Shown in pieces: positions 5,628 through 64,000 of a stretch of DNA of 64,000 nt (position 1 is its first letter; the number at the start of each line of letters is the position of its first letter). The position numbers and the translations under genes were made by a program. The notes below the pieces were generated by a model, which was given only the letters and a program-made list of their open reading frames with translations, ran no database searches and was not told the origin of the DNA. This DNA comes from Aureispira anguillae (GTDB lineage Bacteria; Bacteroidota; Bacteroidia; Chitinophagales; Saprospiraceae): positions 2,585,716 through 2,649,715 of the forward strand of contig NZ_AP026867.1 of the NCBI RefSeq assembly GCF_026000115.1. Reading direction: 5' to 3'.

Positions 5628-5925
5628 TTTTTTTCATTAAAAATTGAGCGCTAAAAAAAGAAAGCAGCTCATTAAGTTATAATATACAACCCAATATATG
5701 ATTTTATCACTAAAAGGAAGAATCAACATAACAGGTATTTACAATCCAAATTGAGATACCTCTGGAAAGACTCTTTCAAGTAATAACTTTACTAGTTAAT
5801 ATTTTTTTACTACAAAAAAGCTCGCTCATTACATAATATCATTTGACTAAAACAAACTAAAAAATCATTTTCGGAGTGGACTTAAAATTAAATATTCCTC
5901 CTAAAGGACTAAATAACAACATCCA

Positions 5926-6120
5926 TCAATAATGAGCGAAAAACAGATGCAAATAAATCATGGTTGTTTCGATCTTAGCATGCTGTAGGATTGCCTTTAA
6001 AATATGAATCGGCACCTTAGCCGCCAAATCCGTTGCAAAGGTATGGCGAGCCACATGGCTTGTTACGGGCTTTAGTATCCCTGCGTCATAGGCAATCTTC
6101 TTTGATTTATGGTTTTTCAC
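5926..6120 (-). pseudogene. tyrosine recombinase (phage-integrase family) C-terminal fragment (copy B)
   Basis: 64-aa ORF with catalytic box II HVARHTFAT...LQHAKIETTMIYLHL; no N-terminal domains. Confidence 0.65.
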
Positions 6121-7098: not shown

Positions 7099-10000
7099 AT
7101 GGAATCCCAAAGCAAATCTTTCGCATCTCCTTCTGAATTTTACAAGCTTAAAAGACCAGAATTTTTCTCTGACTCAAAGATTATCTATGAAGTCCAATTA
7201 ACAAAAGAACATCTAGCGTTAGAATTAGATCAAATCACTATCAATCAAAAGCAAGATGAATTTGAAACATTGTGTAGAAAATTAGCAGAAAAATTAATTG
7301 CTCCGAACTTAATCCCACAAGTTGGTCCTACTGGTGGAGGGGATGGTAAAACTGATTTCGAAACTCATCCCGTATCTCATCAAATTTCAGATAGATGGTT
7401 TGTAACTCAAGAGGGATGGAAAGAAACTGAAAAGTGGGCATTCGCAATTAGCGCAAAAAAAACATGGAAGTCCAAAGCTAAATCAGATATCATAAATATC
7501 TTAAGTACTAAACGTCCATACACTCATATTTTTTTCATGACAAATCAAAAACCGTCAAGTAAAAAAAAGAAAGAAGCTCAAGATTCATTTAAAGAAGAAT
7601 ATGGAATAGAGGTCACCATTCTTGATGGGGTCTGGATAATTGAAAAAATACTACAACATAACTTTATTGATTTGGTAGTAGATGCACTCAATTTATCTAA
7701 AGTTTATAAAGAAAAAAAAGTAATATTAGGTGCTAATGATGACTTAAGAGAAAAACAATTACGTGAATTAGAAGAAAAAATTTCAACTCCTAATAGATAC
7801 TTTGAATATGATTTTCAACGTGTAGAAGATGCGATTGAAGCTGCAATCATATCAAGAATGCTTGAAAAGCCAAGAGATGAAATTGAGGGAAAATTTCTAA
7901 GAGCAAAACGTTTTTGTAAAAAACTAAACAATCCTAAACAATGGCAAAGAATATATTATCAAAGGGCGTGGACATATATTCATTGGTTTGATGATTATGA
8001 AGCTTTCATTGAAGATTATAAACAATTTAAAAAACATATTTCCCTTGCTTGTAATATTTCAAGTATGGAATTATTCTTCAATTTTATAAGCCTTCTAAGA
8101 GGCTTAGAAGTTTCTGATGTTTGCAACTTAAATGAGTTAGGTATCTCATTCAAAGAGGAAAAAGCTGAATTCTTAGAATCTCTATCTAAATTCAACGATA
8201 CAAATAAAATTCCTTGTTCAACAGCGATTGCTCATACTTATAAAAATATCCAAAAATTAATTGATGCAAAAGTAGACGAATCCTCTATATACATAAAAGA
8301 GCTCTCTGAAGTATTAGTACAAGGTTCAAAATATTTAGATTATCCATTTGAGTATTTTACCGATATTTTCACCCTAATTGGCAATATTTTCCCAAATAAT
8401 GAAGAATTTGACAACTTAACAGATATCATAGCACAAATTACTTCAAAACGGCAATCAGACTTAGCAAGTGGAGAAGTTTTTTTAAATCGTGGACTTCAAA
8501 AAATTGAAGCTGAGTTGTTTAAAGAAAGTGTAGTTTTCTTTGGCAAAACCATTGTAAAACTAGCAAAAAAAGAAAGTAACGACTTAATGTATTTTGCTCT
8601 AAGAGGACTAGCAGAAGCTTATTATAGATTGGGTTTACTTTGGGCTGCGAATAACTGCCTTACAGCTTCTCTTTCTTTATCATTCAAATCGTGGTATGAA
8701 AAAGGAGTCATTCATAAAAGGGTATATGATTGTATAACTGCTTTAGCAAAGAATGAGTTAATAATTGGAAGAATTCCTTCTTATTTTTCGTGGCACGAAA
8801 ATCTACAAATTATTAGGAGAGAAATAAATCTTGATGAAATTCCAGCTGAAAAGTCCCCTTATAATATCCTAGACGTTTTTCTTGCAATAAAGCTATTAAA
8901 TACAAGTAATTCAGAAAACAAGTATTTAGCCAGAATCCCAAATCTTTTGGATGAAAAACATTTGTGGTTATCTCAAGATGCTTGTTTATACAAACTCGGT
9001 TATCTGGAAAGGATTAAAGAGAATTTCAAATCGGCAGGAATTAAAGATATGAAACAAATCGATGACTATTTCAGAAATTTAGCTACACAACCTGCTCAGA
9101 AAGAATTATTAAACCCAACGAATTTTCTTGGCGATGAAATCATTTATCTATCATCAATTATTTTAGGTTGTGAATTCAAGATTAAATGCATAAATGATAA
9201 AAGTCTAATTATAACTGTTGAAGCTTTCTTAGCATACTTTGAAACTTTTTTAGCTACTTCTTTAAAAAATGTTGTCCCAGCAACAGAGGAAATCTATCTT
9301 CATTTCAAACGAAATGAAGATTGCGAAATATTAACTTTTTCAAACAAAAACAAATCGAATGAGTATGATATTGAAATAGGGCATGCTACCTTTTCAATGG
9401 AAAATAGAAGTAAGTTATGGGAATTAATGATCAACTTAATATCCGATATACTTGGGCGAAATTTCTTTTTCGATGAAATTGAGAAATATCTTAAAAATCT
9501 CTTTCAAAAAGAAGAAATTTCAGAAAGACTGTCTATTGTGTTTGAGCATATTACATTCACTTATAACACATTAGGAGAGTCCCCTAAAATTCTATTAAAA
9601 GACTGGATTGACATTGAAAAAACAGAAAACTATTCTAATAAAAGAAGTACTCCACTAAATTATAAAACTGACCAAAACAACTCATCTTCAGAGCTTAATA
9701 ACCAAACACTTAATAATTATGGTCATAATAAAAGAAAAGCATATTCATTAATTGACGTCCCTCTTTGGGATGAAGCGGGTTGGATTTCTTTTGGTATTTT
9801 TCAGTATCAAAAGGGTATTGGAATTGCTCTAGGATTTAAAGACGCTAATTATGGAAAAAAGATATTTGATGGATGGATTAATAAAATGGGAACAACTGAT
9901 AAAGAAGAAATTATCAAAATATGTATCATCAAAGGTGTAAATAAGGCTCACCCTCATTGGTATAAAGTTTTAATCACATCTAACATGGTAAAAATGAATC

Positions 10001-10327: not shown

Positions 10328-10525
10328 GCACAACAAAGTGTATATTTCCATGACAGATTTCGGGAACAATCTTACAAGAATGAACGCATGAATTACACCG
10401 CAAAATCTGCGATTTTGCCACTAGTCGTAAAACAATTTACTGGCAAAATCGCAGATTTTGCTCAGGGAACAGCTATATTTATATTCGCATGACGCCTGTC
10501 ACGGAATATACACGGGCCGTTGTCC
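10328..10525 (+). other. attC-like site (long class)
   Basis: inverse core GCACAAC 8 bp after the stop; core GTTGTCC (reverse complement GGACAAC); internal palindrome caaaatctgcgattttgcc...ggcaaaatcgcagattttg. Confidence 0.6.
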
Positions 10526-16589: not shown

Positions 16590-16945
16590 TGGCAAAAAAT
16601 GAGAACTTACCAACGAATGCTCAAGTTGAATTATTTAAAATGCTTGATGTTTTATTGAATTCTATTTATTTCGAGATGAAAGAATTTTCAAAGAAAAAAC
16701 CAGATGAACCACTCAATAAATTTAAAGTAAAAAATGTAAATAGAGTTTTAGAACAAATAAAAGATATTCTAAAAGCAGAACCTACAAGTCCATTCCTGGA
16801 TATCCTGAATGAGGATACATTACCAACAAACAGTGACGCCATTTTAGTTATTGGACAATTTAGAGCGTCTATGGCAAGGTTTCAAAAGAAATATGCTGCA
16901 AAATATGGTAAATGGAAAACAAAAGAAAACCCTACAGGAATTTAA
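16589..16945 (+). CDS. hypothetical protein, paralog of previous gene
   Basis: start overlaps upstream stop (ATGA-type coupling). Confidence 0.45.
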   Translation: MAKNENLPTNAQVELFKMLDVLLNSIYFEMKEFSKKKPDEPLNKFKVKNVNRVLEQIKDILKAEPTSPFLDILNEDTLPTNSDAILVIGQFRASMARFQKKYAAKYGKWKTKENPTGI

Positions 16946-17207
16946 TAAAACGGTAGGTAACAATATGCCAATTCCATAAAGTTAAGAGCAAAAGCTGGTC
17001 TGTAATTTGCAGAAAATCTGTTTCTAAAGCTGTCACATTTCAGGCAGGAACAATTTTAGAAGGTGCATACCAAATTTGCTATCTATAGGGATAGCACATT
17101 CCTTAGCTCTAAAATCACATATTTTCTTCCGTATCAGTGTAGGCATCCCAAGAGAAGCAACCGTTAGTTAAGAGAAAAAATATTATATTAGATAAAAACT
17201 AACGAAA

Positions 17208-17501
17208 ATGAAGAGGAGTAAATTTAGCACAGCTCAAAAAGCAAAGATATTAGCAGAGCATGACGGCGGAAAAAGTGTAACGGATTTATGCCGTCAATAC
17301 CAAATTAGTGCAGCTACGTTGTATAAATGGAAAAAGGACTATGAAGATAGTCAAGATGAAGATAAACGAAGAATAAAGGAATTAGAGGCAGAAAATGTTC
17401 GTTTAAAAAAGATGTATGCTAATTTAAGTATCGATCATGAGATACTTCAAGAAGGTTATGCAATGGTAAAAAAGTTCCAAGCCCAAAAGAACAAGAAATG
17501 A
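17208..17501 (+). CDS. IS3-family transposase OrfA (HTH, leucine zipper)
   Basis: MKRSKFSTAQKAKILAEHDGGKSVTDLCRQYQISAATLYKWKK. Confidence 0.9.
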   Translation: MKRSKFSTAQKAKILAEHDGGKSVTDLCRQYQISAATLYKWKKDYEDSQDEDKRRIKELEAENVRLKKMYANLSIDHEILQEGYAMVKKFQAQKNKK

Positions 17502-18334
17502 TATTGGATTGCTTGTCAAAAGAATACAGCATTCGTCGTACTTGTGTTGTTTTGGGCTTACGCCGTCAGACATATTATAGTCGTAAATCAGGTCATCGCC
17601 CAGAAGAAAAGGATGAAGAAATAGTGGATTTACTACATCAGTTAACAAAACGTTTTGTATCATGGGGCTTTTGGAAAATTTATCACTATTTGAGAAATCA
17701 AGGCTATGCCTATAATCATAAGAGAATTTATCGTATATGGTGTATAGAGGGTTTAAATTTACGTTTACCGCCCAAACGCAAGAGGATTTATCGAAAATAT
17801 CAACAACTTTTGGCTCCTAAAGAAGTCAACAAAGGTTGGGCTATGGATTTTCTAAGTGATTGGGTTGTTAGCCCAACTAATCATCGTATACGAATTATCA
17901 ATATTATGGATGAAGGTTCTCGCCGAGCCTTATGGACAGAAGCTCATCATAATATTTCAGCTAAAAAGCTAATAGAGGTTTTGGAGAAAGTGATAGAATA
18001 TCGTGGAAAACCATCTTATATTCGTTGTGACAATGGTCCTGAGTTTATTTCAGAAAAGCTCAAATTGTGGGCAAATAAACATGATATTGAATTGAAATTC
18101 ATCCAACCAGGAAAGCCATCTCAGAATGGTTTGATTGAGCGTTTGAATAAAACATTGAGAGCCGAATGTTTGAACTTATGCTGGTTTCAATCTCTAGAAG
18201 AATTAAATGAAGAAATACAGGTTTGGAGTCAGATTTATAATCTAGAACGACCTCATAAGAACTTAGGTAATATTACCCCAGATTCTTTTGAGATTCTAAA
18301 TCAGAAACTCTACTTTTTAGCGGTTGCTGCTTAG
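17498..18334 (+). CDS. IS3-family transposase OrfB (DDE integrase core)
   Basis: rve-domain motifs WAMDF...D, CDNGPEF, KPSQNGLIERLNKTLRAE. Confidence 0.9.
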   Translation: MILDCLSKEYSIRRTCVVLGLRRQTYYSRKSGHRPEEKDEEIVDLLHQLTKRFVSWGFWKIYHYLRNQGYAYNHKRIYRIWCIEGLNLRLPPKRKRIYRKYQQLLAPKEVNKGWAMDFLSDWVVSPTNHRIRIINIMDEGSRRALWTEAHHNISAKKLIEVLEKVIEYRGKPSYIRCDNGPEFISEKLKLWANKHDIELKFIQPGKPSQNGLIERLNKTLRAECLNLCWFQSLEELNEEIQVWSQIYNLERPHKNLGNITPDSFEILNQKLYFLAVAA

Positions 18335-18755: not shown

Positions 18756-19095
18756 CCCCTAAATATATGTTTTTTCTGACTACTTTCCTTAACTTTATGG
18801 CAGTGAACAAGAAATATACGTCAATCCCACATCTTGGGCTAAAGCTAAAGTTCATTCGTATGTAACACTACGCAAAATCGCAGATTTTGCTAGTACTCGA
18901 AGAAAAAATTACTAGCAAAATCTGCGATTTTGCTTTGGGATTAGCTATATTCCTATTCGTATAACTTGTGGCACTGCGTATATCAAGACGTTGTCATCAA
19001 TTCAAAGAAAAATCATTACGCAAATACACTGCGCAGCAACTTTTTAACTTTGAGTCTCAGTAAAAAATCTAATCTAGGACTTAAAAATAAAAACT

Positions 19096-20079: not shown

Positions 20080-20272
20080 TAACAACAATCTGCATATAGC
20101 CATCCAGAGCACTCTGTAACGCCCAATTCAGGGGCTTTGTCCAAGCGCAAAATCGCAGATTTTGCCAGTACTCTGAACGAAATTTACTGCCAAAATCTAC
20201 GATTTTGCTTATCTGTAACGCACACTTTTCGTATTTTGCTCTTTCTGCACGGTATATGCAGTAACGTTGGCA
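20078..20272 (+). other. attC-like site (long class)
   Basis: GATAACAACAATCTG ... gcaaaatcgcagattttgcc ... ggcaaaatctacgattttgc ... acGTTGGCAtcaat. Confidence 0.6.
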
Positions 20273-24830: not shown

Positions 24831-25024
24831 CTTAACAAGAAATATACGTCAATCCCACATCTTGGGCTAAAGCTAAAGTTCATTCGTATGTAACACTACG
24901 CAAAATCGCAGATTTTGCTAGTACTCGAAGAAAAAATTACTAGCAAAATCTGCGATTTTGCTTTGGGATTAGCTATATTCCTATTCGTATAACTTGTGGC
25001 ACTGCGTATATCAAGACGTTATAG
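24831..25024 (+). other. attC-like site (long class)
   Basis: CTTAACAAgaaatatacg...gcaaaatcgcagattttgctagtactcgaagaaaaaattactagcaaaatctgcgattttgc...gcgtatatcaagacGTTATAG; near-identical to 18811-18996. Confidence 0.65.
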
Positions 25025-26933: not shown

Positions 26934-27131
26934 CGCCAACAATGTGTAACATATGACCATTCTAGGTGTAGGGCTAAAGCTAAAGTCTCGGCGTATGTGA
27001 GACGCCGCAAAATCGTAGATTTTGCTAGTAGCTTGAAGCCAGATTACTAGCAAAGTCTACGATTTTGCTTTGGGATTGGCTATATTCAGTACGCATAGCC
27101 TCTAGCACAGGCATATACACTAGACGTTAGG
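26934..27131 (+). other. attC-like site (long class; near-canonical cores)
   Basis: CGCCAACAATGTGTAacatatg...cgcaaaatcgtagattttgctagt...actagcaaagtctacgattttgc...gcatatacactagacGTTAGGCacaat. Confidence 0.7.
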
Positions 27132-27221: not shown

Positions 27222-28067
27222 ATGGAAGAATTAACGATTATTAGTCTAGAATTAGAAAGTTTAATCGAAAAAATAGAATTCTATAAATCATCAGGAAAAG
27301 TTTTTGATTCATGGGACGTCTATAATCATGTTGACATGCCTAAAAACTTTGAGAGCAAGACTTATGGTCCTCTCTTTACCACATATAATGATATCGTTAG
27401 TCGACTAAAAGGTTATGATAAAAAAACATTTTCAAGCTTAAAAAAACTTAAACTTTCTCCACCTTTACTAAGAGAAGATGTAGATAACAATTATAATCAT
27501 TATGACTACTATCTTTACACTTCTGAGCATTTGATAGAAATTCTTTTTGAAACAAAAAAAGCAAAAAAAATCCTTGATAAATTTCTGAATTCAAAAGAAA
27601 AAATAAGTACTCAGCAAGGAGTTGAATTTGTTGCAGAAGATAGTTTAAATTCGGCTATTATTGGAATAATAAAAGAAGCAAGAAGTTTCATCACATTGAT
27701 AGCACCTTATATCAAATTACACGAAAGAATAAAAGATGCATTACTACTAAAGTTAAAAGTTCCTGCATTATCCTTAGTTGTTGTGTTCGGCAAAAACGAA
27801 CAAGACAAGTCTAAAAGTCTAAGTACATCAGATAAAACTTTTTTAAATAAATTTCCCAAACTAAGCTTGTATTACAAAAACAGATTACACGCTAAATGCT
27901 ATTTCAATGAAAAAGAAGTTTTATTAACCTCTATGAACTTATATGATTATTCTCAAAATAACAATATTGAGTTCGGAGTTTTGATAAAAAAAGAGATAAA
28001 CCCCAGTCTTTATGATGAAGTAATAACTTATTTTAAAGATGTAATAGAGAATAGTATAAAACAATAA
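27222..28067 (+). CDS. PLD/HKD-like domain protein (putative Nuc-family nuclease)
   Basis: C-terminal RLHAKCYFNEKEVLLTSMNL approximates HxK(x)4D(x)6GSxN with D to E and G to T substitutions. Confidence 0.4.
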   Translation: MEELTIISLELESLIEKIEFYKSSGKVFDSWDVYNHVDMPKNFESKTYGPLFTTYNDIVSRLKGYDKKTFSSLKKLKLSPPLLREDVDNNYNHYDYYLYTSEHLIEILFETKKAKKILDKFLNSKEKISTQQGVEFVAEDSLNSAIIGIIKEARSFITLIAPYIKLHERIKDALLLKLKVPALSLVVVFGKNEQDKSKSLSTSDKTFLNKFPKLSLYYKNRLHAKCYFNEKEVLLTSMNLYDYSQNNNIEFGVLIKKEINPSLYDEVITYFKDVIENSIKQ

Positions 28068-28134: not shown

Positions 28135-28920
28135 ATGTTAAGAATAGAAAAAACTCAACTAAATATTAGTGCTTTAATCACAATGTCTTCTGGATTAAAA
28201 AAGCTTCAATCTAACACAATTACAGAAATGATGGATAAAGGAGAAAAAGCAGGACAAGTGATAATTACTAGAGAAAAAAGGGAAAATGAAAAAACAGATC
28301 TGCAATTAAGCCTAGAGTTACTAAATAAACTTTTTTTTAGTCTTGTTGGAGGTCCTCCTAGCCCACTTATTCTAAGTGGCGATGAAGAAAGATATCTCAG
28401 AAATTGTTCTTATGCTTATTACTACTATAAGACTGAAGAAGCCGAAATTTCTCCCCTAGATGTTTTTGGTGTATTTCACAAAACGCATTTCAACACACCA
28501 CCGCCAAATGAGTTACATAAAGAATTTCCAAAGATGCTTTTATCCACTTTCGGTCTAAATCCCGAATTATCTCAAGCATTCAATAAATACCAACAAACAT
28601 CACCAATTGCCTTACCCTCTCCAAAGTCTTTTAATCATGTATTTCAAACACTAAAGACTGAATTCGTCAATAATGAAATAAAATTAGTATTGGAAGCAAC
28701 CAATCTTGAAATGACGAAAAGTATAGACTCCTTATTTGCATTAAAAGATTTGTTATTTTGTTGTGAGTTTGATACAAGTTCAATTCTTGAACATCATGAA
28801 TTTTCAAAAATAAGTGGACAAAAAGACACATATAACTGGGGTGCTAAAAATGGGATAAAGCCATCTATAGAGTTTGATTACGATTACCTGAAAGTAGATG
28901 TAACAAAAAACTGTGCCTAA
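28135..28920 (+). CDS. hypothetical protein (261 aa), co-cassette with PLD-like gene
   Basis: ORF immediately followed by attC inverse core. Confidence 0.4.
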   Translation: MLRIEKTQLNISALITMSSGLKKLQSNTITEMMDKGEKAGQVIITREKRENEKTDLQLSLELLNKLFFSLVGGPPSPLILSGDEERYLRNCSYAYYYYKTEEAEISPLDVFGVFHKTHFNTPPPNELHKEFPKMLLSTFGLNPELSQAFNKYQQTSPIALPSPKSFNHVFQTLKTEFVNNEIKLVLEATNLEMTKSIDSLFALKDLLFCCEFDTSSILEHHEFSKISGQKDTYNWGAKNGIKPSIEFDYDYLKVDVTKNCA

Positions 28921-29135
28921 CAATCTGTCAATTCCATAAAGTTAAGAGCAAAAGCTGGTCTGTAATTTGCGGAAAATCTGTTTCTAAAGCTGTCACATTT
29001 CAGGCAGGAACAATTTTAGAAGGTGCATACCAAATTTGCTATCTATAGGGACAGCATATTCCTGAGCTCTAAAATTACATTTCTTTTTAGAGCTTGATTA
29101 TTAATTGTATTCCAATGCTTTATAAGCTACCTATA

Positions 29136-30105
29136 CTAAAAGGCTGGCTTGTAGTTTTTTTCTGTCATATACCGTTCATTCAATCTCATTTGCTTGCGTG
29201 TTCTTTTTGTTGGTGGTCGTATTCGGACGCTTTCATAATAGCGTTTTATTAGGTTAATCGCAGCTTTAACATATACTCCTTGATGCTCTGAAAGCAACAA
29301 ATCAAACCAATCTTTTTTCACTATAGTAATTGCTATATTTCTATTTATTTGACCCTTCAGTTTTTGTCCATTCAATTCTTTTTCTGCTACATGAATAAAC
29401 ATCGAGCGAATATTGTAAAAGATCAACACCGACCATAAATCCTGTAAAACAAATTGGGCTTTGTAACCTGAAAATACACCTAATTTTAGTTGATTTTTAA
29501 GCTCATCAAAAGCTGTTTCCTCTCCCCACCTTTTAGAATATAAATCTTTAAATTCTTCTCTGCTAAACTTATTCTTATCCAATAAATTCGTTGCTAAAAC
29601 CTCGGTTGTTCCATTCGGTAATTCTACTCGAAGTAACCTTATTTTGAAGGTTGAAAATTTTGGATGCTTATTTTTTAAGCCATACTTATCTCTTGCTGAA
29701 TAATAAGCTCTTTCACCTAACCGAAATTCTACTATGCTATCAGTATCTCCACTTTTTAAAAAATTTTCTACTGCTTTTATTCCCTTTATTTTCATTCTTA
29801 TCAAGCAGGGCTTTCTCGATTTTAAGTGGCGGTCTAATAGTAAACTATCGCAATAATGGCGATCATAGATCATGATTGAGTTGCTAGGAAGAATTTCAAA
29901 TTTTTGATGAAGGGCAACCAACTCTGCTACTGATCTTGGATGTAAATGCACATGATAGAATACTCGATTCAATACATCATGTATCGCTAATATCTTGCAG
30001 GCTGCTATTGCTCCATATTGGTTCTTGTGAACACCTATTAAGCATCTATTTTCTTCCGTATCAGGCACTCGAATTCCAATTCCATCAATCGCCAATAGTT
30101 GGTAT
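29136..30105 (-). pseudogene. IS4/IS5-superfamily DDE transposase, 5' part severed by IS3-B insertion
   Basis: the N-terminal MGYTS residues of the tracked ORF come from the IS3-B terminus; DDE_Tnp_1 YREK signature present. Confidence 0.65.
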
Positions 30106-30141
30106 TGAGGTATTGAGGTGTACCCCATTTATAGGACCAGT

Positions 30142-31050
30142 TTAAGCTGATTTTAAATTTATTAGATATTTTTCTTCCAAAATCTCCTCACAGAAATTTT
30201 GGGAGGTTTTGGAAGGGGAATATCGGTCACAAGGACGTTCATCGTCAATCCCCATGTGTCTTCTTTCCCAGTTATATTTGTTAAAATACTTTTTCATTCC
30301 TGTATGCAATGCACTTCCATCCAAATACTCTCGAATATAAGCATCTTCGTATTTCACAGACCACCATAATCGTTCAATAAACACATTATCGATACAGCGC
30401 CCTTTTCCATCCATGCTAAATTTAATTCCATAATCTTTGGTAACACATTTGACAAATTCTTTTGATGTAAATTGACTTCCTTGATCCGTATTCAAAATCT
30501 CTGGCTTCCCATATCTTTCTATCCCTTCTTCTAATGTATTTTTGCACCATAGGGCATCCATCGTATTCGATATTGACCAAGACACTACAAATCGACTATA
30601 AAGGTCAATGACAGCAGTTAAATATAGAAAACCCTTTGGCATAGGAATATAAGTAATATCCATTGCCCAGACTTGGTTAGGTCGTTCTATTTTTAAGCCT
30701 CTCAGTAGATAAGGAAAAACTTGATGGTCTTCTCCTTTTCCTGGTTTTGACGTCTGTGGTCCTGGTAAAATGGATCGCAAGCCCATTACAGAATAATACA
30801 ATCGATTAATACGCTTTCGATTCACCTTAAAACCTTTATCCGCCGTCAACCATAAATGCATGGCACGAGCTCCTTTATAGGGATGCTTTAGGTAATGTTC
30901 ATCCATTAATCGCATCAACTCCATATTTAATTCGCTCTCTTCTTTTGGTTGATAATAAATACCAGAGCGATGAATACCTATCAACTTGCATTGACGGCGA
31001 ACACTCAAAATTGGGTGATTAGAATTAATATGTTGACGTTTCTCGGACAA
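30142..31050 (-). CDS. IS3-family transposase OrfB
   Basis: rve DDE core (WAMDITYIP, TDQGSQFTS, IERLWWSVKYE). Confidence 0.9.
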   Translation of the reverse strand: MSEKRQHINSNHPILSVRRQCKLIGIHRSGIYYQPKEESELNMELMRLMDEHYLKHPYKGARAMHLWLTADKGFKVNRKRINRLYYSVMGLRSILPGPQTSKPGKGEDHQVFPYLLRGLKIERPNQVWAMDITYIPMPKGFLYLTAVIDLYSRFVVSWSISNTMDALWCKNTLEEGIERYGKPEILNTDQGSQFTSKEFVKCVTKDYGIKFSMDGKGRCIDNVFIERLWWSVKYEDAYIREYLDGSALHTGMKKYFNKYNWERRHMGIDDERPCDRYSPSKTSQNFCEEILEEKYLINLKSA

Positions 31051-31759: not shown

Positions 31760-31985
31760 CCTCTAAATATATGTTTTTTCTGACTACTTTCCTTAACTTT
31801 ATGGCAGTGAACAATGTGTATGCAGCAATACTAGATTTCGGGCTAAAGCTAAATATTCGTCTTTTGCCTAGCACCGCAAAATCGCAGATTTTGCTCTAAG
31901 GAATAGCTATATTTAAGTTCGCATAGCTTCTAGTTCTGTACATACACGCACGTTAGCTCTCATTAAAAAAAAGAAAAACCCAAAT

Positions 31986-33719
31986 ATGGCAAATACAAAA
32001 ATCAAAGCCTTTTTCAACAGTCGATACTTCGAGATTCCAAAATATCAAAGAGGATACGCTTGGGAAAAGAAGAATATTAGAGAATTGTTTGAAGATATTG
32101 AAGAAGCGATAGAGGTAAAAGCAAGTCACTATATTGGAACAATTGTTCTATCAAAAACGGAAAAAGGAGAAGATGTTTTTTATGTAGTTGACGGACAACA
32201 AAGAATTACAACAACTACAATGATAATCAATGAATTGGTTAAACATTTAGATGCGGACGATTCAAGTTTTTACAAAAGATTTTATATTAATCGAGGAGAA
32301 AGATTTAGATTATTACCATTGGGAAAAGAAAAAGACTTTTTTAAAGAGTTACTAACTAATGGTGAATCTGATTTGATACCCGTAAATAGAAGCCAACGAC
32401 TTCTGATTGAAGCTTACCAAGAAATTCAAGGAAAAGTTTCGCAAATTGTTAAAGAGAAAAGCGCCTTAGATTATCTCGAACAAATAGAAAATTTGCAGAT
32501 AATGGAATTTGTTGAAGATAGCGAAGGTGATGCAATACGAATTTTTCAAACTGTCAACGATAGAGGAAAACCGTTGACAAATATGGAGAAAGCAAAAAGT
32601 CTTTTAGTATATTTTTCAAATCGGTATTTGGTAAGAAAACTTGATAAAGATATTAATGACAAGTTTGGGCAGATGTTTGAAATATATGACCAAATAAAGC
32701 ATGTAGGAACAAAAAATAGTATTGATTTGATTTCAGGGAGATACGGAGAGTTCAATGAAGACAATATAATGCGATACCATTTTGTAACTTTCAGTAATGA
32801 AGATTACGACCCAACAGCAAGTTATGTACTGGGCTTTCTAAAAAGGAAACTTAAAGAGTTCCGAAAAAGCAAAACATCAAAAGAGCAAATAGAGAACTTC
32901 ATCAACTCTTATGTGAATAGTTTACTATCATTTTTTACCTGCCTCAATAAGTTGGTTCAAAAGACGGAAATTAATGAAAAGTACTTTAAAATATTTTCGA
33001 TTTTAGGCTTATCTGCAACCTTATATCCTGTAATTGCAAAATTTGAAGAATTCGGGATTCTCGACACTTCACTTGAAGGAGAAGAACTTGAATCTTATAA
33101 TTTTCTTGATTTAATTGAATTGATTGATGTTAGAGTTTATAAGGTAAGAGGAACTGACCCCAAAGCAGATATTGGCAGGTTTTCATATCAAATAGCCAAT
33201 GAAAAATGGGATAATGCAGATATGGAAAACTGGTTAGTTTGGTTCAACGAGCGTTGGATGCCAGAAGATGAATTTAGAAATAATTTGTACAGCTCAATTT
33301 ATAAAAGAAGTCGAGCTGTATTACCACATATACTTTTAGATTATTCAGAAACTATAAGTGATACTAAATTGACTATCGAAGAATTAAAAGATTTTGTAAA
33401 GAAGAAGGCTTTTAGCATTGAGCATATTTTATCACAGAAACCGAAGTTTACTTTAAAAACACATGGGTTTAAAAGTACGGAAGAATATCTTGAATTTGAG
33501 CATACAATTGGAAACCTAACTTTGCTTGAAAAGTCATTAAATAGTAGTGTCAATAACAAAAATGTTTATGACAAGATAGATTATTATGATAGAAGTATTT
33601 TCAGAATTACCAAAGAGTTGGCAACCGAAATAACTCATAACAATCAATTCAAAAAAGAAGATATTGAAAATCGTACAGAGAAAATGGTTGAATTTCTAAT
33701 TGAAAAATGGTGGTGTTAA
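31986..33719 (+). CDS. GmrSD-like type IV restriction enzyme (DUF262 + DUF1524)
   Basis: N-terminal DUF262 hallmark YVVDGQQRITT; C-terminal DUF1524/HNH-like FSIEHILSQ ... GNLTLLEKSLNSSVNNKN. Confidence 0.7.
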   Translation: MANTKIKAFFNSRYFEIPKYQRGYAWEKKNIRELFEDIEEAIEVKASHYIGTIVLSKTEKGEDVFYVVDGQQRITTTTMIINELVKHLDADDSSFYKRFYINRGERFRLLPLGKEKDFFKELLTNGESDLIPVNRSQRLLIEAYQEIQGKVSQIVKEKSALDYLEQIENLQIMEFVEDSEGDAIRIFQTVNDRGKPLTNMEKAKSLLVYFSNRYLVRKLDKDINDKFGQMFEIYDQIKHVGTKNSIDLISGRYGEFNEDNIMRYHFVTFSNEDYDPTASYVLGFLKRKLKEFRKSKTSKEQIENFINSYVNSLLSFFTCLNKLVQKTEINEKYFKIFSILGLSATLYPVIAKFEEFGILDTSLEGEELESYNFLDLIELIDVRVYKVRGTDPKADIGRFSYQIANEKWDNADMENWLVWFNERWMPEDEFRNNLYSSIYKRSRAVLPHILLDYSETISDTKLTIEELKDFVKKKAFSIEHILSQKPKFTLKTHGFKSTEEYLEFEHTIGNLTLLEKSLNSSVNNKNVYDKIDYYDRSIFRITKELATEITHNNQFKKEDIENRTEKMVEFLIEKWWC

Positions 33720-35898: not shown

Positions 35899-35911
35899 AA
35901 AATAAAACAAT

Positions 35912-36692
35912 GCCTAATAATGTGTCAATTCCATAAAGTTAAGAGTAAAAGCTGGTCTGTAATTTGCAGAAAATCTGTTTCTAAAGCTGTCACATTTCAG
36001 GCAGGAACAATTTTAGAAGGTGCATACCAAATTTGCTATCTATAGGGATAGCACATTCCTGAGCTCTAAAATCACATATTTTCTTCCGTATCAGGCACTC
36101 GAATTCCAGTTCCATCAATCGCCAATAGTTGGTATCCTTTCCAATATTTTATCCCTCGATTGCTTCGATAAAAAAGTTGGCAACTATAAGAAAATAAGTC
36201 TTCAAAAAAACAAACCTTAATCTTTGAACGAGCTAAGGATAATGCTGTCTTTGTTGGTGGGCATCTTGATCTAAACAGTCTTGAGTGGGAGATTAATTCA
36301 GCGTTTACACTTTTTTTAAAAGACCTATATCAATCCTACCGTTGTTGCAAAATCTAATTTGCGATGTCTTGTAAAATCTTGTTCTGGGCGAATCAAATAG
36401 GTCGCCCGTTTTTGGGCTGTTAAGCTTAGTAGTTTTTTGTCACGTTTCATCCTCTAAATATATGTTTTTTCTGACTACTTCCCTTAACTTTATGGCAGTG
36501 AACAATATGCATATGGTCATGGGGAGTATACAGAACCGCCTAACAGCATCCTCTGCCCCAGAAGTCACAAAATCACAGATTTTGCTAGTGCCTGAAGCTA
36601 AATTACTATCAAAATCTGCGATTTTGCTTGGGGAATAGCTATATTTAGTATCGCATATCTTGTGGCACAGGCATATACACAAACCGTTATGG
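35912..36692 (+). other. attC-like site disrupted by IS4-like deletion derivative
   Basis: GCCTAATAA at 35912-35920; remainder at 36506-36692 (tatgcatatgg ... caaaatcacagattttgctagt ... atcaaaatctgcgattttgc ... gcatatacacaaacCGTTATGGgcaag). Confidence 0.55.
35921..36505 (-). mobile_element. IS4/IS5-superfamily element, internal-deletion derivative (585 bp)
   Basis: same two ends as the full copy; junction ...ttcttccgtatcag|gcactcgaattcc joins the left end to the transposase 5' region. Confidence 0.6.
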
Positions 36693-38437: not shown

Positions 38438-38629
38438 GATAACAATCTGCAATAGCCATCCAGAGCACTATGTAACACCTAATTCAAGGGTTTTGTCCAA
38501 GCGCAAAATCACAGATTTTGCTAGTGCTTGAAGAAAAAATACTAGCAAAATCTATGCTTTTGCTCTAGGGTTGGTGCCATATTTCTTATCTTACTTCTCC
38601 CCCACATGCATATGCACAAACATTGTGGG
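38438..38629 (+). other. attC-like site (long class), core mutated to ATTGTGG
   Basis: GATAACAATCTGCAATAGCCATCCAGAGCAC (same head as 20078-20110) ... gcaaaatcacagattttgctagt ... actagcaaaatctatgcttttgc ... catatgcacaaacATTGTGGgtaat. Confidence 0.55.
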
Positions 38630-42276: not shown

Positions 42277-42429
42277 GTCATAACAATGTCTATAATCCAT
42301 GCTAGATTTTCGTCGGATGCTCTACAACTCGTGGCATGACTAACACTGCAAAATCTGTGATTTTGCTCAATTGCAACACCATTATTTCGTATTTTACTCT
42401 TCCATACATTATATACAATAATGTTGTCA
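42277..42429 (+). other. attC-like site
   Basis: GTCATAACAATGTCTATAATCCATGC ... ctgcaaaatctgtgattttgc ... tacaataatGTTGTCAacaat. Confidence 0.5.
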
Positions 42430-42545: not shown

Positions 42546-43004
42546 ATGAAAAGAACAGTACAAAGTGCTGTAGTTTGTGGAACCACAATGACAGTGTTAA
42601 ACATTTTAAATCAACTATTTTTCAACCCCAAAGAAAAATTTGATTTCGAAGAATTATTTGAATGTACTTTAATTGGAGCTGGAATTGGGGCTACGGTAGG
42701 AGTTACGATTGATACCGTGGAATATTTATCTAAAAATGATGAAAAATCAGAACTTTCACTTCCTGATAAAGTTTGGAATAAAGGGGACAAAGTTTGGTAT
42801 TTAGATTCTAATGTTTGGAGAAAAGATAAGTATGGAAATACTATTAAATATTCTGAATACGGTAACAGAAAATCCGATTATGGCTGGGAAAAGGACCATT
42901 CAAAACCTAAATCAAAAGGTGGTAAAGATCATCTAAATAATTTCCAACCATTACAATGGAAAGAGAATCTAAAAAAAAGTAATAAATATCCATATAAGAA
43001 ATAA
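42546..43004 (+). CDS. small HNH-endonuclease-motif protein with N-terminal hydrophobic/Gly-zipper region
   Basis: YGWEKDHSKPKSKGGKDHLNNFQPLQWKENLKKSNK fits the HNH pattern WExDHxxPxSxGGxD ... N ... N. Confidence 0.5.
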   Translation: MKRTVQSAVVCGTTMTVLNILNQLFFNPKEKFDFEELFECTLIGAGIGATVGVTIDTVEYLSKNDEKSELSLPDKVWNKGDKVWYLDSNVWRKDKYGNTIKYSEYGNRKSDYGWEKDHSKPKSKGGKDHLNNFQPLQWKENLKKSNKYPYKK

Positions 43005-52696: not shown

Positions 52697-53374
52697 ATGA
52701 AAAAATTTGATCAATTCTTGACTGAATATCAAAAAACATATCGAGAATATGAAAACTTCAACTTAAAGTATATTGAGGATGAAGAAAAAGGTATCGTTAT
52801 TGACGAAGAAAAAAACTTTACAGAATATCAAAAACTTCAAAAAAATTATACGAAAGCCTACGAAAAATTTCACAACTCATTTCTTCAAGAAATTAAAAAC
52901 CAAAACTTATCCCATGAAGTAGAATTCTCTAAAATTCTAACAAAGACAATCAACTCAAAAAACTGGGAACACTTTTACTTAATTAAAGATATTGCTGTTC
53001 CCTATAATACCTATCAAAGTGAACAATATATTAAAATCATAACTTGGACAATTAGCGAAATATTAGAAAGCTCAGCTCTCAGCATAGAAATTGAAAACGG
53101 TAAATTAGAATGGTCAAAAGGCGCAATGCTTGAAGCATTAATTAATGCTCTAAATCTAAAACTAAATCAAGATTTTATTTCAAAAGCTGTTGGTAAAATT
53201 CTCCAAGTAGTAGATGAAGACAACATTGGAAACTACCACTTACTAAAAAAATGTATTTCTATCCTCTCCTATATAAACAATAAAACTGCACGAAAATATC
53301 TAAAGGCAAAAATTCAACTATCTAACGATGAAGAAATTATCACCCACATAAAAAAAGTACTGGATAAAAAATAA
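52697..53374 (+). CDS. hypothetical protein (225 aa)
   Basis: ORF followed by attC inverse core cgacgacaacaa. Confidence 0.45.
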   Translation: MKKFDQFLTEYQKTYREYENFNLKYIEDEEKGIVIDEEKNFTEYQKLQKNYTKAYEKFHNSFLQEIKNQNLSHEVEFSKILTKTINSKNWEHFYLIKDIAVPYNTYQSEQYIKIITWTISEILESSALSIEIENGKLEWSKGAMLEALINALNLKLNQDFISKAVGKILQVVDEDNIGNYHLLKKCISILSYINNKTARKYLKAKIQLSNDEEIITHIKKVLDKK

Positions 53375-53389
53375 ACCGACGACAACAAC

Positions 53390-53704
53390 GTATCAATTTC
53401 ATCAAATTAAGAGCAAAAGCTGGGCTATAATTTGTAAAAAATCTATTTTTAAAGATATTACATTTTAGGTAGGAACACTTTTAAAAGGAGCATACTAAAT
53501 TTGCTATCTATAGGGACAGCACATTCCTTATCTCTAAAATTACATTCTTATCAAGCAAGGTTTCCTCGATTTTAAGTGGCGGTCTAATAGCAAGCTATCG
53601 CAATAAGGGCCATCATCGTTAAACTCAGTAGTTTTTTGTCACGTTTCACACTCTAAACATATGTTTTTTTTGACTATTCTTCTTAACTTTATGGCAGTGA
53701 ACAA
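53390..53704 (-). mobile_element. IS4/IS5-superfamily element, diverged deletion derivative (315 bp)
   Basis: left end atcaatttcatcaaattaagagcaaaagctggg, an internal piece matching the transposase region at 29806-29880, and right end cttaactttatggcagtgaacaa. Confidence 0.5.
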
Positions 53705-53839
53705 TCTGTATGTCTAAACTTCGTGGCATGACCAACGCTGTAAAATCATAAATTTTGTTTGGAGACAGAGCCAATTAGATTCAGTGCATGGCCTTTTGCA
53801 CAGTTTATATATCTGCAAGCAGAACAAAACGAAAATAAT

Positions 53840-54894: not shown

Positions 54895-55066
54895 GCAGCA
54901 AAGTGTACAATTTATATCGTTACTCCATGGATACATATTACAAAATCATAGATTTTGCTGCTGGTTTGAAAACAAGTTTACCATCAAAATCTATGATTTT
55001 GCTCAAGGAAAAACTATATTTAAACTGCATATGGTCTACACTCAGTCTATACACGAATCGTTGTAA
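54895..55066 (+). other. attC-like site (long class)
   Basis: GCAGCAAAGTGTACAA ... cAAAATCATAGATTTTGctgctgg ... catCAAAATCTATGATTTTGctc ... tatacacgaatcGTTGTAAat. Confidence 0.5.
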
Positions 55067-55166
55067 ATAATTAAATAGCTGCAAAAGGTTTCAACTATAT
55101 TAGCCATATTTCATGACGGAGAAATCTAAGGTAATTTTACAGAACTTATTGAAATAAAATTGAAAA

Positions 55167-55511
55167 ATGAATAATTCAGAACTCATATTAGTTAAGGCAA
55201 GACTGAAGATGCGGACATCAAACGATGGAGGACGTAAAACTGGGTTTTTATCTGGATTGAGACCTAATCATGTTTTTGAGTATTATGACGATGGATTTTT
55301 AAGGACCTACATTGGTGATATTCAATTTGAAGGGCAAGAACTAATCATGCCTGGAGAGGAAAAGGAAGTGCTTGTTCGATTCCTTGATCATCCATCCATT
55401 CATGTATATCTTCAGATTGGTCGAAAGTGGTGGATACATGAAGGTGCTAGATGTACAGGTGAAGCAGAAATATTAGAAATAAAATTACCTACAACAATAA
55501 CTAAAAAATAA
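55167..55511 (+). CDS. stand-alone EF-Tu domain 3-like (GTP_EFTU_D3 beta-barrel) protein
   Basis: GGRKTGFLSGLRPNHVFEYYDDG ... IMPGEEKEVLVRFLDHP ... IHEGARCTGEAEILEI aligns with EF-Tu domain III [24 protein letters not shown] ... VMPGDNIKMVVTLIHP ... IREGGRTVGAGVVAKV. Confidence 0.5.
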   Translation: MNNSELILVKARLKMRTSNDGGRKTGFLSGLRPNHVFEYYDDGFLRTYIGDIQFEGQELIMPGEEKEVLVRFLDHPSIHVYLQIGRKWWIHEGARCTGEAEILEIKLPTTITKK

Positions 55512-63598: not shown

Positions 63599-64000
63599 AA
63601 ATAGTAAACACAGAAATTATGGAAACATACCTGTAAAAATACGCATATGCGAGCCCATTTCAAAATCTGCAATCTTGTTTTGAGAATAACTACATTTATT
63701 AGGGTGTGGCTTTGCGCACAAAGTATATGCTAATGTTATCGTTAATCACCCCACCCAACAACCAGTGCATAATTTTAGAAATGGTTCATGTTTTAAGTTG
63801 TTCTAAACTCATTTCTCAATGCTTTGAGTCAAATTCGGAAGACGTTTGGAAGAATCTATCCGCAAAAATTGCAAATTTTGCTATATTAGTTGGCGTAAAT
63901 GAATGGCTTCGCCCTTCTCCTACAATCTGTATATACACATTATCAGTAATTCCCCCCAATTATGAATGAAAAAAAAGTACAATTTTCACTAACAGCAGAA

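What the first reader, a model, noticed from the sequence alone, without database searches (positions are those of the whole stretch)
55167..55511. Stand-alone EF-Tu domain-III-like protein in its own cassette
The 114-aa protein aligns along its length with domain 3 of EF-Tu: GGRKTGFLSGLRPNHVFEYYDDG / IMPGEEKEVLV / IHEGARCTGEAEI against [24 protein letters not shown] / VMPGDNIKMVV / IREGGRTVGAGVV. It has no GTPase domain and no domain 2. A free domain III could mimic EF-Tu surfaces used by EF-Ts, tRNA or phage and toxin factors. EF-Tu is a known target of the phage-exclusion protease Lit and of CdiA toxins, so a decoy or immunity role is plausible.
Basis: partly seen in the sequence, partly recalled or inferred. 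Interest (0 to 1): 0.6.

Follow-up and report, generated by a model that had tools for sequence, protein, structure and literature searches.

The report
Mobile stand-alone EF-Tu domain III protein
This is a real, conserved gene for a free-standing copy of the third domain of translation factor EF-Tu; in Bacteroidota it travels on small integron-like gene cassettes, its function has never been tested, and it most likely works by binding a partner rather than by catalysis.

Summary
Window 55167-55511 (+) encodes a 114-aa protein, identical to an Aureispira anguillae hypothetical protein. It is homologous to bacterial EF-Tu domain III only (family profile vs PDB E=2e-8; AlphaFold pLDDT 90; Foldseek E=5e-7). 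The window holds no GTPase domain or domain II.

It belongs to an undescribed Bacteroidota family inside a wider superfamily of stand-alone D3-like proteins. The family is under purifying selection.

The main new result concerns context. In several genomes the gene is an integron-type cassette. In Lacinutrix it lies in an array behind a Xer/integron-integrase-like recombinase, bounded by complementary GTTGTAGG/CCTACAAC cores. Cassettes of 0.5-0.8 kb are 90-98% identical between loci named to different genera and families. In the window, a related repeated hairpin element precedes the gene and eleven other genes.

The decoy/immunity reading is only partly supported:
- No toxin neighbour was found in 77 loci.
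- There is no PADLOC or phage hit.
- Lit's cleavage site lies in domain I.
- Doc's Thr382 position is hypervariable here.
- Distant relatives are fused to SUKH and ankyrin domains, which favours a conflict role.

Best guess (about 0.35): a self-sufficient protective binder that mimics EF-Tu domain III.

The parts
55167..55511 (+). ORF for the 114-aa stand-alone EF-Tu domain-III-like protein (stop codon included)
   Evidence: ORF list. 100% match to an A. anguillae hypothetical protein. dN/dS of about 0.1-0.2 among relatives.
55194..55481 (+). Residues 10-105: the six-stranded beta-barrel homologous to EF-Tu residues ~305-392
   Evidence: Pfam and NCBIfam envelopes cover residues 10-105. PDB alignments. 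AF2 strands E6-15, E34-40, E43-53, E65-73, E87-92, E95-106. Foldseek match.
54940..55002 (.). Hairpin of the repeated upstream element. Two 17-nt palindromic boxes (54941-54957 and 54985-55001) are reverse complements of each other.
   Evidence: 23 matches of CAAAATCNNNGATTTTG in the window against 1.3 expected. 23-pair consensus hairpin with 5 compensatory pairs. DNA fold z = -3.8.
55003..55067 (+). Conserved 3' part of the repeated element (..ACTATATTT..TATACAC..), ending in the core CGTTGTAAA at 55059-55067, 100 nt before the start codon
   Evidence: Alignment of 12 copies. Cores located 57-59 nt after box 2 in 11 of 12 copies. The same ..ATACA..AACGTTGT ending is seen in the Lacinutrix cassette repeats.

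Best explanation
The gene encodes a small cytoplasmic protein that is a free-standing, diverged copy of the domain III beta-barrel of bacterial EF-Tu. It has no nucleotide-binding or catalytic parts, so it can only act by binding something. It is carried on small integron-type gene cassettes that move between Bacteroidota, usually as a single gene, so it must give a benefit on its own.

The most likely mode of action is a protective competitive binder (a decoy or target mimic). It would offer an EF-Tu domain-III-like surface to a factor that normally docks on EF-Tu. The relevant face is probably the one built from the GGRxTGF, G(Y/L)RPN and xEG motifs. By my recollection of the literature, that face meets domain I and the tRNA T-stem in EF-Tu. 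The factor could be an interbacterial toxin, a phage protein or an EF-Tu-directed antibiotic.

Shown here: homology, fold, stand-alone architecture, purifying selection, cassette mobility, and fusions to immunity-type domains in distant relatives. Inferred: the partner, the binding face and the protective effect.
For: Homology and fold:
- The protein matches EF-Tu D3 only, by sequence and by fold.
- Profile hits are bacterial EF-Tu, not eEF1A or SelB.
- Conserved EF-Tu positions are retained: G316, G317, R318, T320, G325, R327, P328, F332, P352, G353, G371, E378 and G384. Q329 is conservatively replaced by Asn.

Real gene under selection:
- dN/dS is about 0.1-0.2 for moderately diverged pairs.
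- 142 loci were found among GTDB species representatives.
- 802 clusters at 50% identity match the family profile.

Mobility as an autonomous unit:
- Blocks of 0.5-0.8 kb are 90-98% identical between loci whose record titles place them in different genera and families, with no flank similarity.
- Complementary GTTNNNNN / NNNNNAAC cores sit just before the start and 4-8 nt after the stop in 11-12 of 77 loci, against 1-6 at control offsets.
- The Lacinutrix cassette lies in a recombinase-headed array with 11 repeat copies.
- The repeat folds end-to-end like an attC site.

Conflict-type associations:
- Fusions to SMI1_KNR4/SUKH (E=2.8e-7), to ankyrin repeats, and a tandem D3-D3 protein.
- Near-identical or 80%-identical second copies in three genomes.
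- In the window, the shared upstream element also heads GmrSD, PLD-like and HNH genes.
- Recombinase-associated arrays with integron-like intergenic repeats in Bacteroidales are experimentally shown orphan-immunity arrays (10.1101/471110).
- EF-Tu is a recurrent hub for toxins and defence systems (PMC7690452; 10.1101/2025.10.28.685041; PMC13581612).
Against: - No cognate toxin or other recurrent partner gene was found in 77 loci. The only cross-taxon neighbour is a tyrosine recombinase.
- Known immunity families are not enriched among 150 neighbours. The Lacinutrix array ORFs have no Pfam hits at all.
- There is no PADLOC match, no close relative in IMG/VR and no phage homologue in BFVD.
- In Pedobacter, Mucilaginibacter and Flavobacterium the gene is syntenic between housekeeping genes.
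- 18 of the 34 most conserved family positions differ from EF-Tu. Examples are F330H, R333E, F374W and V387E. This points to a surface of the family's own.
- Very high conservation across the phylum is unusual for immunity proteins.
- EF-Tu is extremely abundant, so a decoy would need much higher affinity than EF-Tu itself.
- The structurally described toxin contacts on EF-Tu are mostly on domains I and II.
Confidence: 0.35

Rival explanations
1. Neofunctionalised scaffold. The EF-Tu D3 barrel was recruited as a stable small fold and now binds a ligand unrelated to EF-Tu biology. The retained EF-Tu motifs would be fold determinants only.
For: - 18 of 34 highly conserved positions are family-specific polar or aromatic residues: H35, E38, Y39, D51, R71, Y81, W88, H91 and E101.
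- Most retained EF-Tu residues are Gly, Pro or Arg, typical of turns and salt bridges.
- There are two insertions relative to EF-Tu.
- Neighbourhoods give no translation link.
Against: The three most conserved EF-Tu D3 motifs have been kept for a very long time in a protein free of domains I and II. The match is specific to bacterial EF-Tu rather than to the generic barrel.
Confidence: 0.3
2. Translation-linked host factor. The free domain III binds a conserved cellular partner of EF-Tu D3 (tRNA T-arm, EF-Tu domain I or EF-Ts) and tunes or protects translation, for example under stress.
For: - Positions equivalent to R318, Q329 (as Asn), E378 and G379 are invariant or nearly so. By my recollection of the literature these are T-stem and domain I interface residues, and they coincide with kirromycin-resistance sites.
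- Strong conservation across the phylum fits an invariant cellular ligand.
- Synteny with housekeeping genes in Pedobacter.
Against: - Family pI has a median of 6.2 and the window protein 6.9, so it is not basic.
- An isolated D3 gives only a fraction of EF-Tu's tRNA contacts (established knowledge).
- The distribution is sporadic and cassette-borne, unlike a core translation factor.
Confidence: 0.2
3. Toxin of a small toxin-antitoxin-like cassette. The conserved D3-like protein poisons translation and the variable small upstream genes, or the fused N-module, neutralise it.
For: Short forms often follow a tightly spaced or overlapping small gene of varying family. Examples are a 153-aa ORF, DUF7660, 125-, 129- and 107-aa ORFs. 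TA cassettes are common in integrons (established knowledge).
Against: The window copy and many others are solitary single-gene cassettes. Upstream partners are not shared across taxa. Nothing indicates toxicity.
Confidence: 0.05
4. Non-functional remnant of a tuf gene duplication.
For: It is annotated only as a hypothetical protein, and Pfam is sub-threshold.
Against: It is an intact ORF in a family of hundreds of clusters with dN/dS of about 0.1-0.2. The predicted fold is confident. No domain I or II relics flank it.
Confidence: 0.02

Closest known systems
EF-Tu domain III (Pfam PF03143, GTP_EFTU_D3)
   Same: It is a homologous six-stranded beta-barrel. It shares the GGRxT(P/G)F, GYRP and EG..G motifs. 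The best sequence and structure matches are all bacterial EF-Tu residues ~305-392.
   Different: It stands alone, with no GTPase domain and no domain II. It has two insertions. Half of its conserved positions are family-specific. It is below the Pfam gathering score. It is encoded on mobile cassettes, not in the tuf or str operon.
Recombinase-associated orphan immunity arrays (rAID-1) of Bacteroidales (Ross et al., 10.1101/471110)
   Same: A XerD-like tyrosine recombinase heads an array of many small same-strand genes separated by repetitive, integron-like intergenic sequences. This is seen around the family gene in L006 and partly in L074 and the window.
   Different: No known T6SS immunity homologues were detected in the arrays examined here. 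The hosts are Flavobacteriia, Cytophagia and Saprospiria rather than gut Bacteroidales. No toxin has been matched.
Integron gene cassettes with attC sites
   Same: Each unit is a single ORF followed by a ~140-170-nt imperfect inverted repeat. The repeat's ends (NNNNNAAC ... GTTNNNNN) are complementary, and the cassette's first bases complete the 3' core. The units transfer as discrete blocks.
   Different: The recombinase has the same orientation as the cassettes. It scores below the integron-integrase (TIGR02249) cutoff and matches that model in two pieces. The cores fit GTTRRRY only loosely. In the window the gene has only the 5' element.
SUKH / SMI1_KNR4 and ankyrin immunity proteins of polymorphic toxin systems
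   Same: Both are small cytoplasmic binding proteins found in arrays. Distant D3-like proteins are fused to these domains, as immunity domains often are to one another (PMC3113570, title and abstract listed; the statement about fusions is my recollection of that work).
   Different: There is no sequence or fold relation, and no adjacent toxin gene was found for the D3-like family.

Membership tests
Elongation factor Tu (TIGR00485 / PRK00049) | N-terminal GTPase (G) domain | tested here: not met
   The protein is 114 aa. NCBIfam EF-Tu models match only at their positions ~307-394, at 28 bits against cutoffs of ~450-520. No G-domain similarity was found in the window.
Elongation factor Tu (TIGR00485 / PRK00049) | Domain II beta-barrel | tested here: not met
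Elongation factor Tu (TIGR00485 / PRK00049) | Domain III beta-barrel | tested here: met
Pfam PF03143 GTP_EFTU_D3 | Score at or above the gathering threshold (27 bits) | tested here: not met
   The window protein scores 13.7 bits. Some relatives pass: P0170 at 29.6 and P0205 at 31.9 bits. Homology is established by other searches.
Polymorphic-toxin immunity protein | Encoded directly downstream of a toxin gene in at least some members | tested here: not met
   No recurrent upstream protein or shared C-terminal domain in 77 loci.
Polymorphic-toxin immunity protein | Neutralises a cognate toxin | not testable with these tools
   Needs co-expression or competition experiments.
rAID-1-like orphan immunity array | XerD-family recombinase followed by an array with repetitive intergenic sequences | tested here: inconclusive
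   Met in L006. A recombinase lies directly upstream in L074 and L032. In the window, repeats are present but only a ~55-aa recombinase fragment at 5893-6114(-).
rAID-1-like orphan immunity array | The array holds homologues of known immunity genes | tested here: not met
   No Imm or SUKH families appear among the top families of 150 neighbours. The L006 array ORFs have no Pfam hits. Only the 25 most frequent families could be seen.
Integron gene cassette | 3' attC-like imperfect inverted repeat with complementary R''/R' cores, where the cassette's first bases complete R' | tested here: inconclusive
   Met for relatives (L006, L009, L023, L024, L039, L040, L044, L072, L074). For the window gene only the upstream core CGTTGTAAA was found, with no R'' downstream.
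Integron gene cassette | Integron integrase (IntI) at the head of the array | tested here: inconclusive
   The L006 recombinase passes NF040815 'site-specific tyrosine recombinase/integron integrase' (230.5 bits against 220). It is below the TIGR02249 cutoff (191 against 265) and matches that model in two stretches.
Mimic of the Doc kinase target site | Thr at the position of EF-Tu Thr382 | tested here: not met
   The aligned residue is Cys96. The loop 93-97 that holds it is poorly conserved in the family. That Thr382 is Doc's target is my knowledge of the literature.
Known anti-phage defence proteins (PADLOC) | Match to a PADLOC model | tested here: not met
   No hit at E<=0.1.

The most novel reading that the evidence does not exclude
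A whole superfamily of free EF-Tu domain-III mimics is spread by integron-like cassettes in Bacteroidota, with relatives in other phyla. These would act as single-gene protection against agents that must dock on EF-Tu: interbacterial toxins, phage proteins such as capsid or replicase subunits, or elfamycin-type antibiotics. That would be a new class of target-mimic immunity. The cassette arrays that carry it would be a little-studied integron-like system in this phylum.
Probability: 0.2. Interest if true: 0.8.

Novelty: new variant of a known kind. Interest (0 to 1): 0.5.

Why it matters
EF-Tu is emerging as a hub of bacterial conflict. It is cleaved by Lit and type IV Thoeris and built into Avs7. 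It is required by CdiA tRNases and bound by Tse6. It is required for bacterial intoxication by the T6SS effector Rhs2.

A widespread, mobile, stand-alone copy of one EF-Tu domain is a ready candidate for a counter-measure, or for a new small regulator of translation. It is easy to test because it is a single small gene. No curated family model or paper covering it was found in the libraries searched.

The context also points to integron-like cassette arrays in Flavobacteriia, Cytophagia and Saprospiria. Their cargo is almost entirely unannotated.

Tried and rejected
1. Degenerate N-terminal module or EF-Tu domain relic upstream of the ORF. The in-frame upstream translation looked faintly similar. 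An HMM of the N-module against all six frames of the window found nothing, so this was rejected.
2. Conserved gene neighbour or cognate toxin. All-vs-all clustering of ORFs in 80 loci and of the immediate neighbours found only within-genus synteny and a tyrosine recombinase. Upstream proteins inspected by sequence look like housekeeping types, such as a prolyl oligopeptidase, a TonB-dependent receptor and YidC. These identifications rest on my reading of the sequences, not on a search.
3. Immunity-family enrichment among 150 neighbours was not seen. Only the 25 most frequent families could be viewed.
4. No signal came from PADLOC, IMG/VR, BFVD or Rfam on the window.
6. Contexts of distant superfamily members (Novosphingobium and two MAGs) were uninformative.
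7. PDB sequence searches of two upstream partner proteins gave nothing.
8. A 3' cassette boundary for the window gene was not found.
9. Unavailable or empty: the look-up of the exact NCBI protein was not on record, and the afdb50 library was unavailable.
11. Literature searches for a described stand-alone D3 family found none.

Full report
**1. The observation**

Window 55167-55511 (+) is an intact 114-aa ORF with an ATG start. Its last 100 residues are identical to an NCBI 'hypothetical protein' of Aureispira anguillae (Bacteroidota, Saprospiria), on a 7.58-Mb contig. NCBI starts the protein at Met15. That removes a first beta-strand that is conserved in all relatives, where V9 and A11 are nearly invariant. 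It corresponds to the first strand of EF-Tu domain III.

The similarity to EF-Tu is significant and specific:
- phmmer against all PDB sequences gives E=3.1e-5. The 56 best hits are all EF-Tu chains, aligned at residues ~305-392.
- NCBIfam EF-Tu models match only at their C-terminal ~90 positions, E=6.8e-7.
- A profile of 54 family members raises this to E=2.1e-8. Bacterial EF-Tu comes far ahead of mitochondrial EF-Tu, and no eEF1A or SelB appears.
- Pfam PF03143 is below threshold for this protein.

**2. The family**

Sixty-two close relatives (47-86% identity) come from Flavobacteriia, Sphingobacteriia, Cytophagia, Chitinophagia and Saprospiria. Nearly all are unnamed or 'hypothetical'.
- A scan of one genome per GTDB species found 142 loci.
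- A profile search of 1.84 billion representatives found 802 clusters at E<=1e-3.
- dN/dS between moderately diverged pairs is about 0.1-0.2, so this is a functional gene and not a tuf remnant.

There are two architectures:
- Short forms of ~105-115 aa, like the window protein.
- Long forms of ~152-167 aa, with an extra conserved 52-aa N-terminal module.

That module is itself a widespread stand-alone 51-aa protein in Bacteroidota (502 hits). It is also found with other C-terminal domains. The long form folds as one compact unit (pTM 0.83), but the module does not resemble EF-Tu domain II. No copy or relic of the module is in the window.

Beyond the Bacteroidota clade lies a broader superfamily of ~100-120-aa stand-alone D3-like proteins with the motif GGR..P..GYRPNHNF...PGE...W.IQEG..VG.G. 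One is from Novosphingobium. A few are fused to other modules:
- SMI1_KNR4/SUKH (E=2.8e-7);
- ankyrin repeats;
- N-terminal hydrophobic, apparently transmembrane, stretches (my reading of the sequences);
- a second D3 copy.

**3. What is kept and what is changed relative to EF-Tu**

The numbering follows E. coli and was checked against the PDB alignment ranges. Of the 34 positions conserved at 80% or more in the family, 16 carry the EF-Tu residue. These are G316, G317, R318, T320, G325, R327, P328, F332, G339, I341, P352, G353, V360, G371, E378 and G384. The other 18 do not: Q329N, F330H, Y331V, R333E, T334Y, T340D, L343F, T361R, A367Y, F374W, R377H, G386A, V387E and others.

From my knowledge of the literature, G316, Q329, A375 and E378 line the domain I-III interface where kirromycin binds. 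R318/H319, Q329, E378 and G379 correspond to tRNA T-stem contacts. These statements were not verified with the tools (one search found no paper).

The residue aligned with Thr382, the Doc kinase target, is Cys96. It lies in the loop 93-97, one of several poorly conserved stretches of the family. The family is mildly acidic to neutral (median pI 6.2).

The protein thus keeps the most conserved motif face of domain III but has also evolved a conserved surface of its own.

**4. Genomic context**

No gene is a conserved neighbour across the 80 loci. Synteny is seen only within genera. The one neighbour that recurs across taxa is a tyrosine recombinase: it lies within 8 kb in 10 loci and directly upstream in three. 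Neighbours' Pfam hits are miscellaneous.

The informative signal is at the DNA level. Blocks of only 0.5-0.8 kb that carry the gene, sometimes with one small upstream ORF, are 90-98% identical between loci whose record titles place them in different genera and families. No flanking similarity accompanies them.

In Lacinutrix algicola (L006):
- A recombinase passes NCBIfam's 'site-specific tyrosine recombinase/integron integrase' model.
- It is followed by at least ten small same-strand ORFs without Pfam hits.
- These ORFs are separated by eleven copies of a ~170-nt repeat.
- The D3-like gene there is bounded by ...AACG|TTGTAGG, 20 nt before its GTG start, and by CCTACAAC, 8 nt after its stop. 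These are exact reverse complements.
- The downstream repeat folds end-to-end into a long imperfect hairpin (z=-3.9).

This is the logic of integron cassettes, where R''/R' cores are complementary and the first bases of the cassette complete R'. Exact complementary 8-mers in these positions occur in 11-12 of 77 loci, against 1-6 at control offsets. Six different core sequences are involved.

These arrays resemble the recombinase-associated orphan-immunity arrays (rAID-1) of Bacteroidales. Those have a XerD-like recombinase and integron-like intergenic repeats (10.1101/471110).

**5. Context in the window**

A ~150-nt element precedes the gene at 54912-55067. It consists of two 17-nt palindromic boxes that are reverse complements of each other and form a 23-bp hairpin. 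A conserved tail follows and ends in CGTTGTAAA.

The box motif occurs 23 times in the window, against 1.3 expected. The element lies 50-190 nt upstream of twelve + strand genes of unrelated function:
- a cNMP-binding protein, an SDR, an ankyrin protein and a PLD-like protein;
- GmrSD, a beta-lactamase, an HNH protein and an MBL-fold protein;
- the D3-like protein and three proteins of unknown function.

Its tail resembles the 3' end of the Lacinutrix repeat (..ATACA..AACGTTGT). Four or five other window cassettes show the expected complementary core right at the end of their last ORF. A 194-nt repeat that starts with GCCTAAC-type cores follows four ORF ends.

For the D3-like gene itself I found only the upstream element and no downstream core. 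The window also holds three IS3 copies and only a ~55-aa recombinase fragment at 5893-6114(-). No sigma-70-type promoter excess or intrinsic terminator was detected. Bacteroidota promoters are not covered by that scan.

**6. Interpretation**

The protein has no catalytic apparatus and must act by binding. As a single-gene mobile cassette under strong purifying selection, it must be useful on its own.

I favour, at about 0.35, a protective competitive binder that mimics EF-Tu domain III. In favour:
- its origin from EF-Tu and the motifs it retains;
- its cassette and array ecology;
- second copies in three genomes;
- the SUKH and ankyrin fusions;
- the growing list of toxins and defence systems that dock on EF-Tu.

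Against it:
- no cognate toxin;
- no known immunity or defence signature;
- housekeeping synteny in some genera;
- very high conservation;
- the abundance of EF-Tu;
- the family-specific surface.

The main rivals are a neofunctionalised barrel with an unrelated ligand (0.3) and a host translation-linked binder of tRNA, EF-Tu or EF-Ts (0.2). A TA-type toxin (0.05) and a dead remnant (0.02) are unlikely.

Lit's site is in domain I. The Doc site is not conserved. The described toxin interfaces lie mainly on domains I and II.

**7. Novelty**

The fold is known. The stand-alone architecture, the family and its cassette-borne mobility are not described in any library or paper I could search. I rate it a new variant of a known kind, of moderate interest. 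It becomes high interest if the target-mimic function is shown.

Noticed in passing
window 10401-10460, 18873-18932, 20148-20207, 24901-24960, 27008-27067, 31877-31893, 36568-36626, 38504-38562, 42349-42365, 53741-53757, 54941-55001, 63661-63677: A repeated ~150-nt element with a 23-bp hairpin (two mutually complementary palindromic boxes CAAAATCNNNGATTTTG) and a conserved tail ending in (A/C)CGTTR. It is always in + orientation, 50-190 nt upstream of a + strand gene of unrelated function. There are 23 box matches against 1.3 expected, and compensatory changes in the hairpin. No Rfam family matches. It could be the 3' half of an attC-like site, a promoter or operator module, or both.
   Followed up: partly
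window 16944-17137, 28904-29097, 35901-36094, 53369-53562; also 22699, 25813, 28914, 39765: A 194-nt repeat begins exactly at four ORF ends with GCCTAAC-type cores. Several cassettes have a core after their last ORF that is the reverse complement of the GTTNNNNN core upstream of their first ORF. The window therefore looks like a partly decayed integron-like cassette array.
   Followed up: partly
window 5893-6114 (-): A fragment (~55 aa, C-terminal part) of a tyrosine recombinase of the type found at the head of cassette arrays in other Bacteroidota. No intact recombinase of this type was found in the window.
   Followed up: partly
window 17208-18334 (+) and 29136-31050 (-); third copy not located: Pfam finds three ORFs in the window with IS3-type integrase core domains (rve, rve_3, HTH_21). 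From ORF sizes, two copies appear to be at the listed coordinates. Both sit next to the cassette repeats, which suggests IS insertion into or beside the recombination sites.
   Followed up: no
window 55167 vs 55209: The NCBI annotation starts the protein at Met15, giving 100 aa. Family conservation shows the true start is the upstream ATG at 55167.
   Followed up: yes
L081:5001-5156, L082:5001-5156, L085:5001-5156 and long-form family members: The 52-aa N-terminal module of the long forms is itself a widespread stand-alone 51-aa protein of Bacteroidota (502 hits). It is also found in small-ORF arrays next to integrases and transposases. All members tested give a weak, sub-threshold hit to DUF1583_N. 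Its function is unknown.
   Followed up: partly
L054/L055/L058 ~7520-8342; L072/L009; L013/L016; L044/L065: Cassettes of 0.5-0.8 kb carrying the D3-like gene are 90-98% identical in DNA between loci named to different genera and families, with no flanking similarity. This indicates recent horizontal transfer of the bare cassette.
   Followed up: yes
L054 2878-3165, 4770-5062, 8820-9108, 10301-10592 and L059 16024-16315: One Bacteroidales MAG has ~290-nt and ~150-nt repeats dispersed between the small ORFs of two arrays. Each array holds a D3-like gene, and the two copies are 80% identical.
   Followed up: no
window 27222-28067, 31986-33719, 42546-43004: PLD-like, GmrSD (type IV restriction) and HNH genes each sit behind a copy of the repeated element. 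The array therefore carries defence-type cargo.
   Followed up: no
L006:4245-11672: All nine cassette ORFs of the Lacinutrix array that were scanned lack significant Pfam hits. The array cargo is essentially unannotated protein space.
   Followed up: partly
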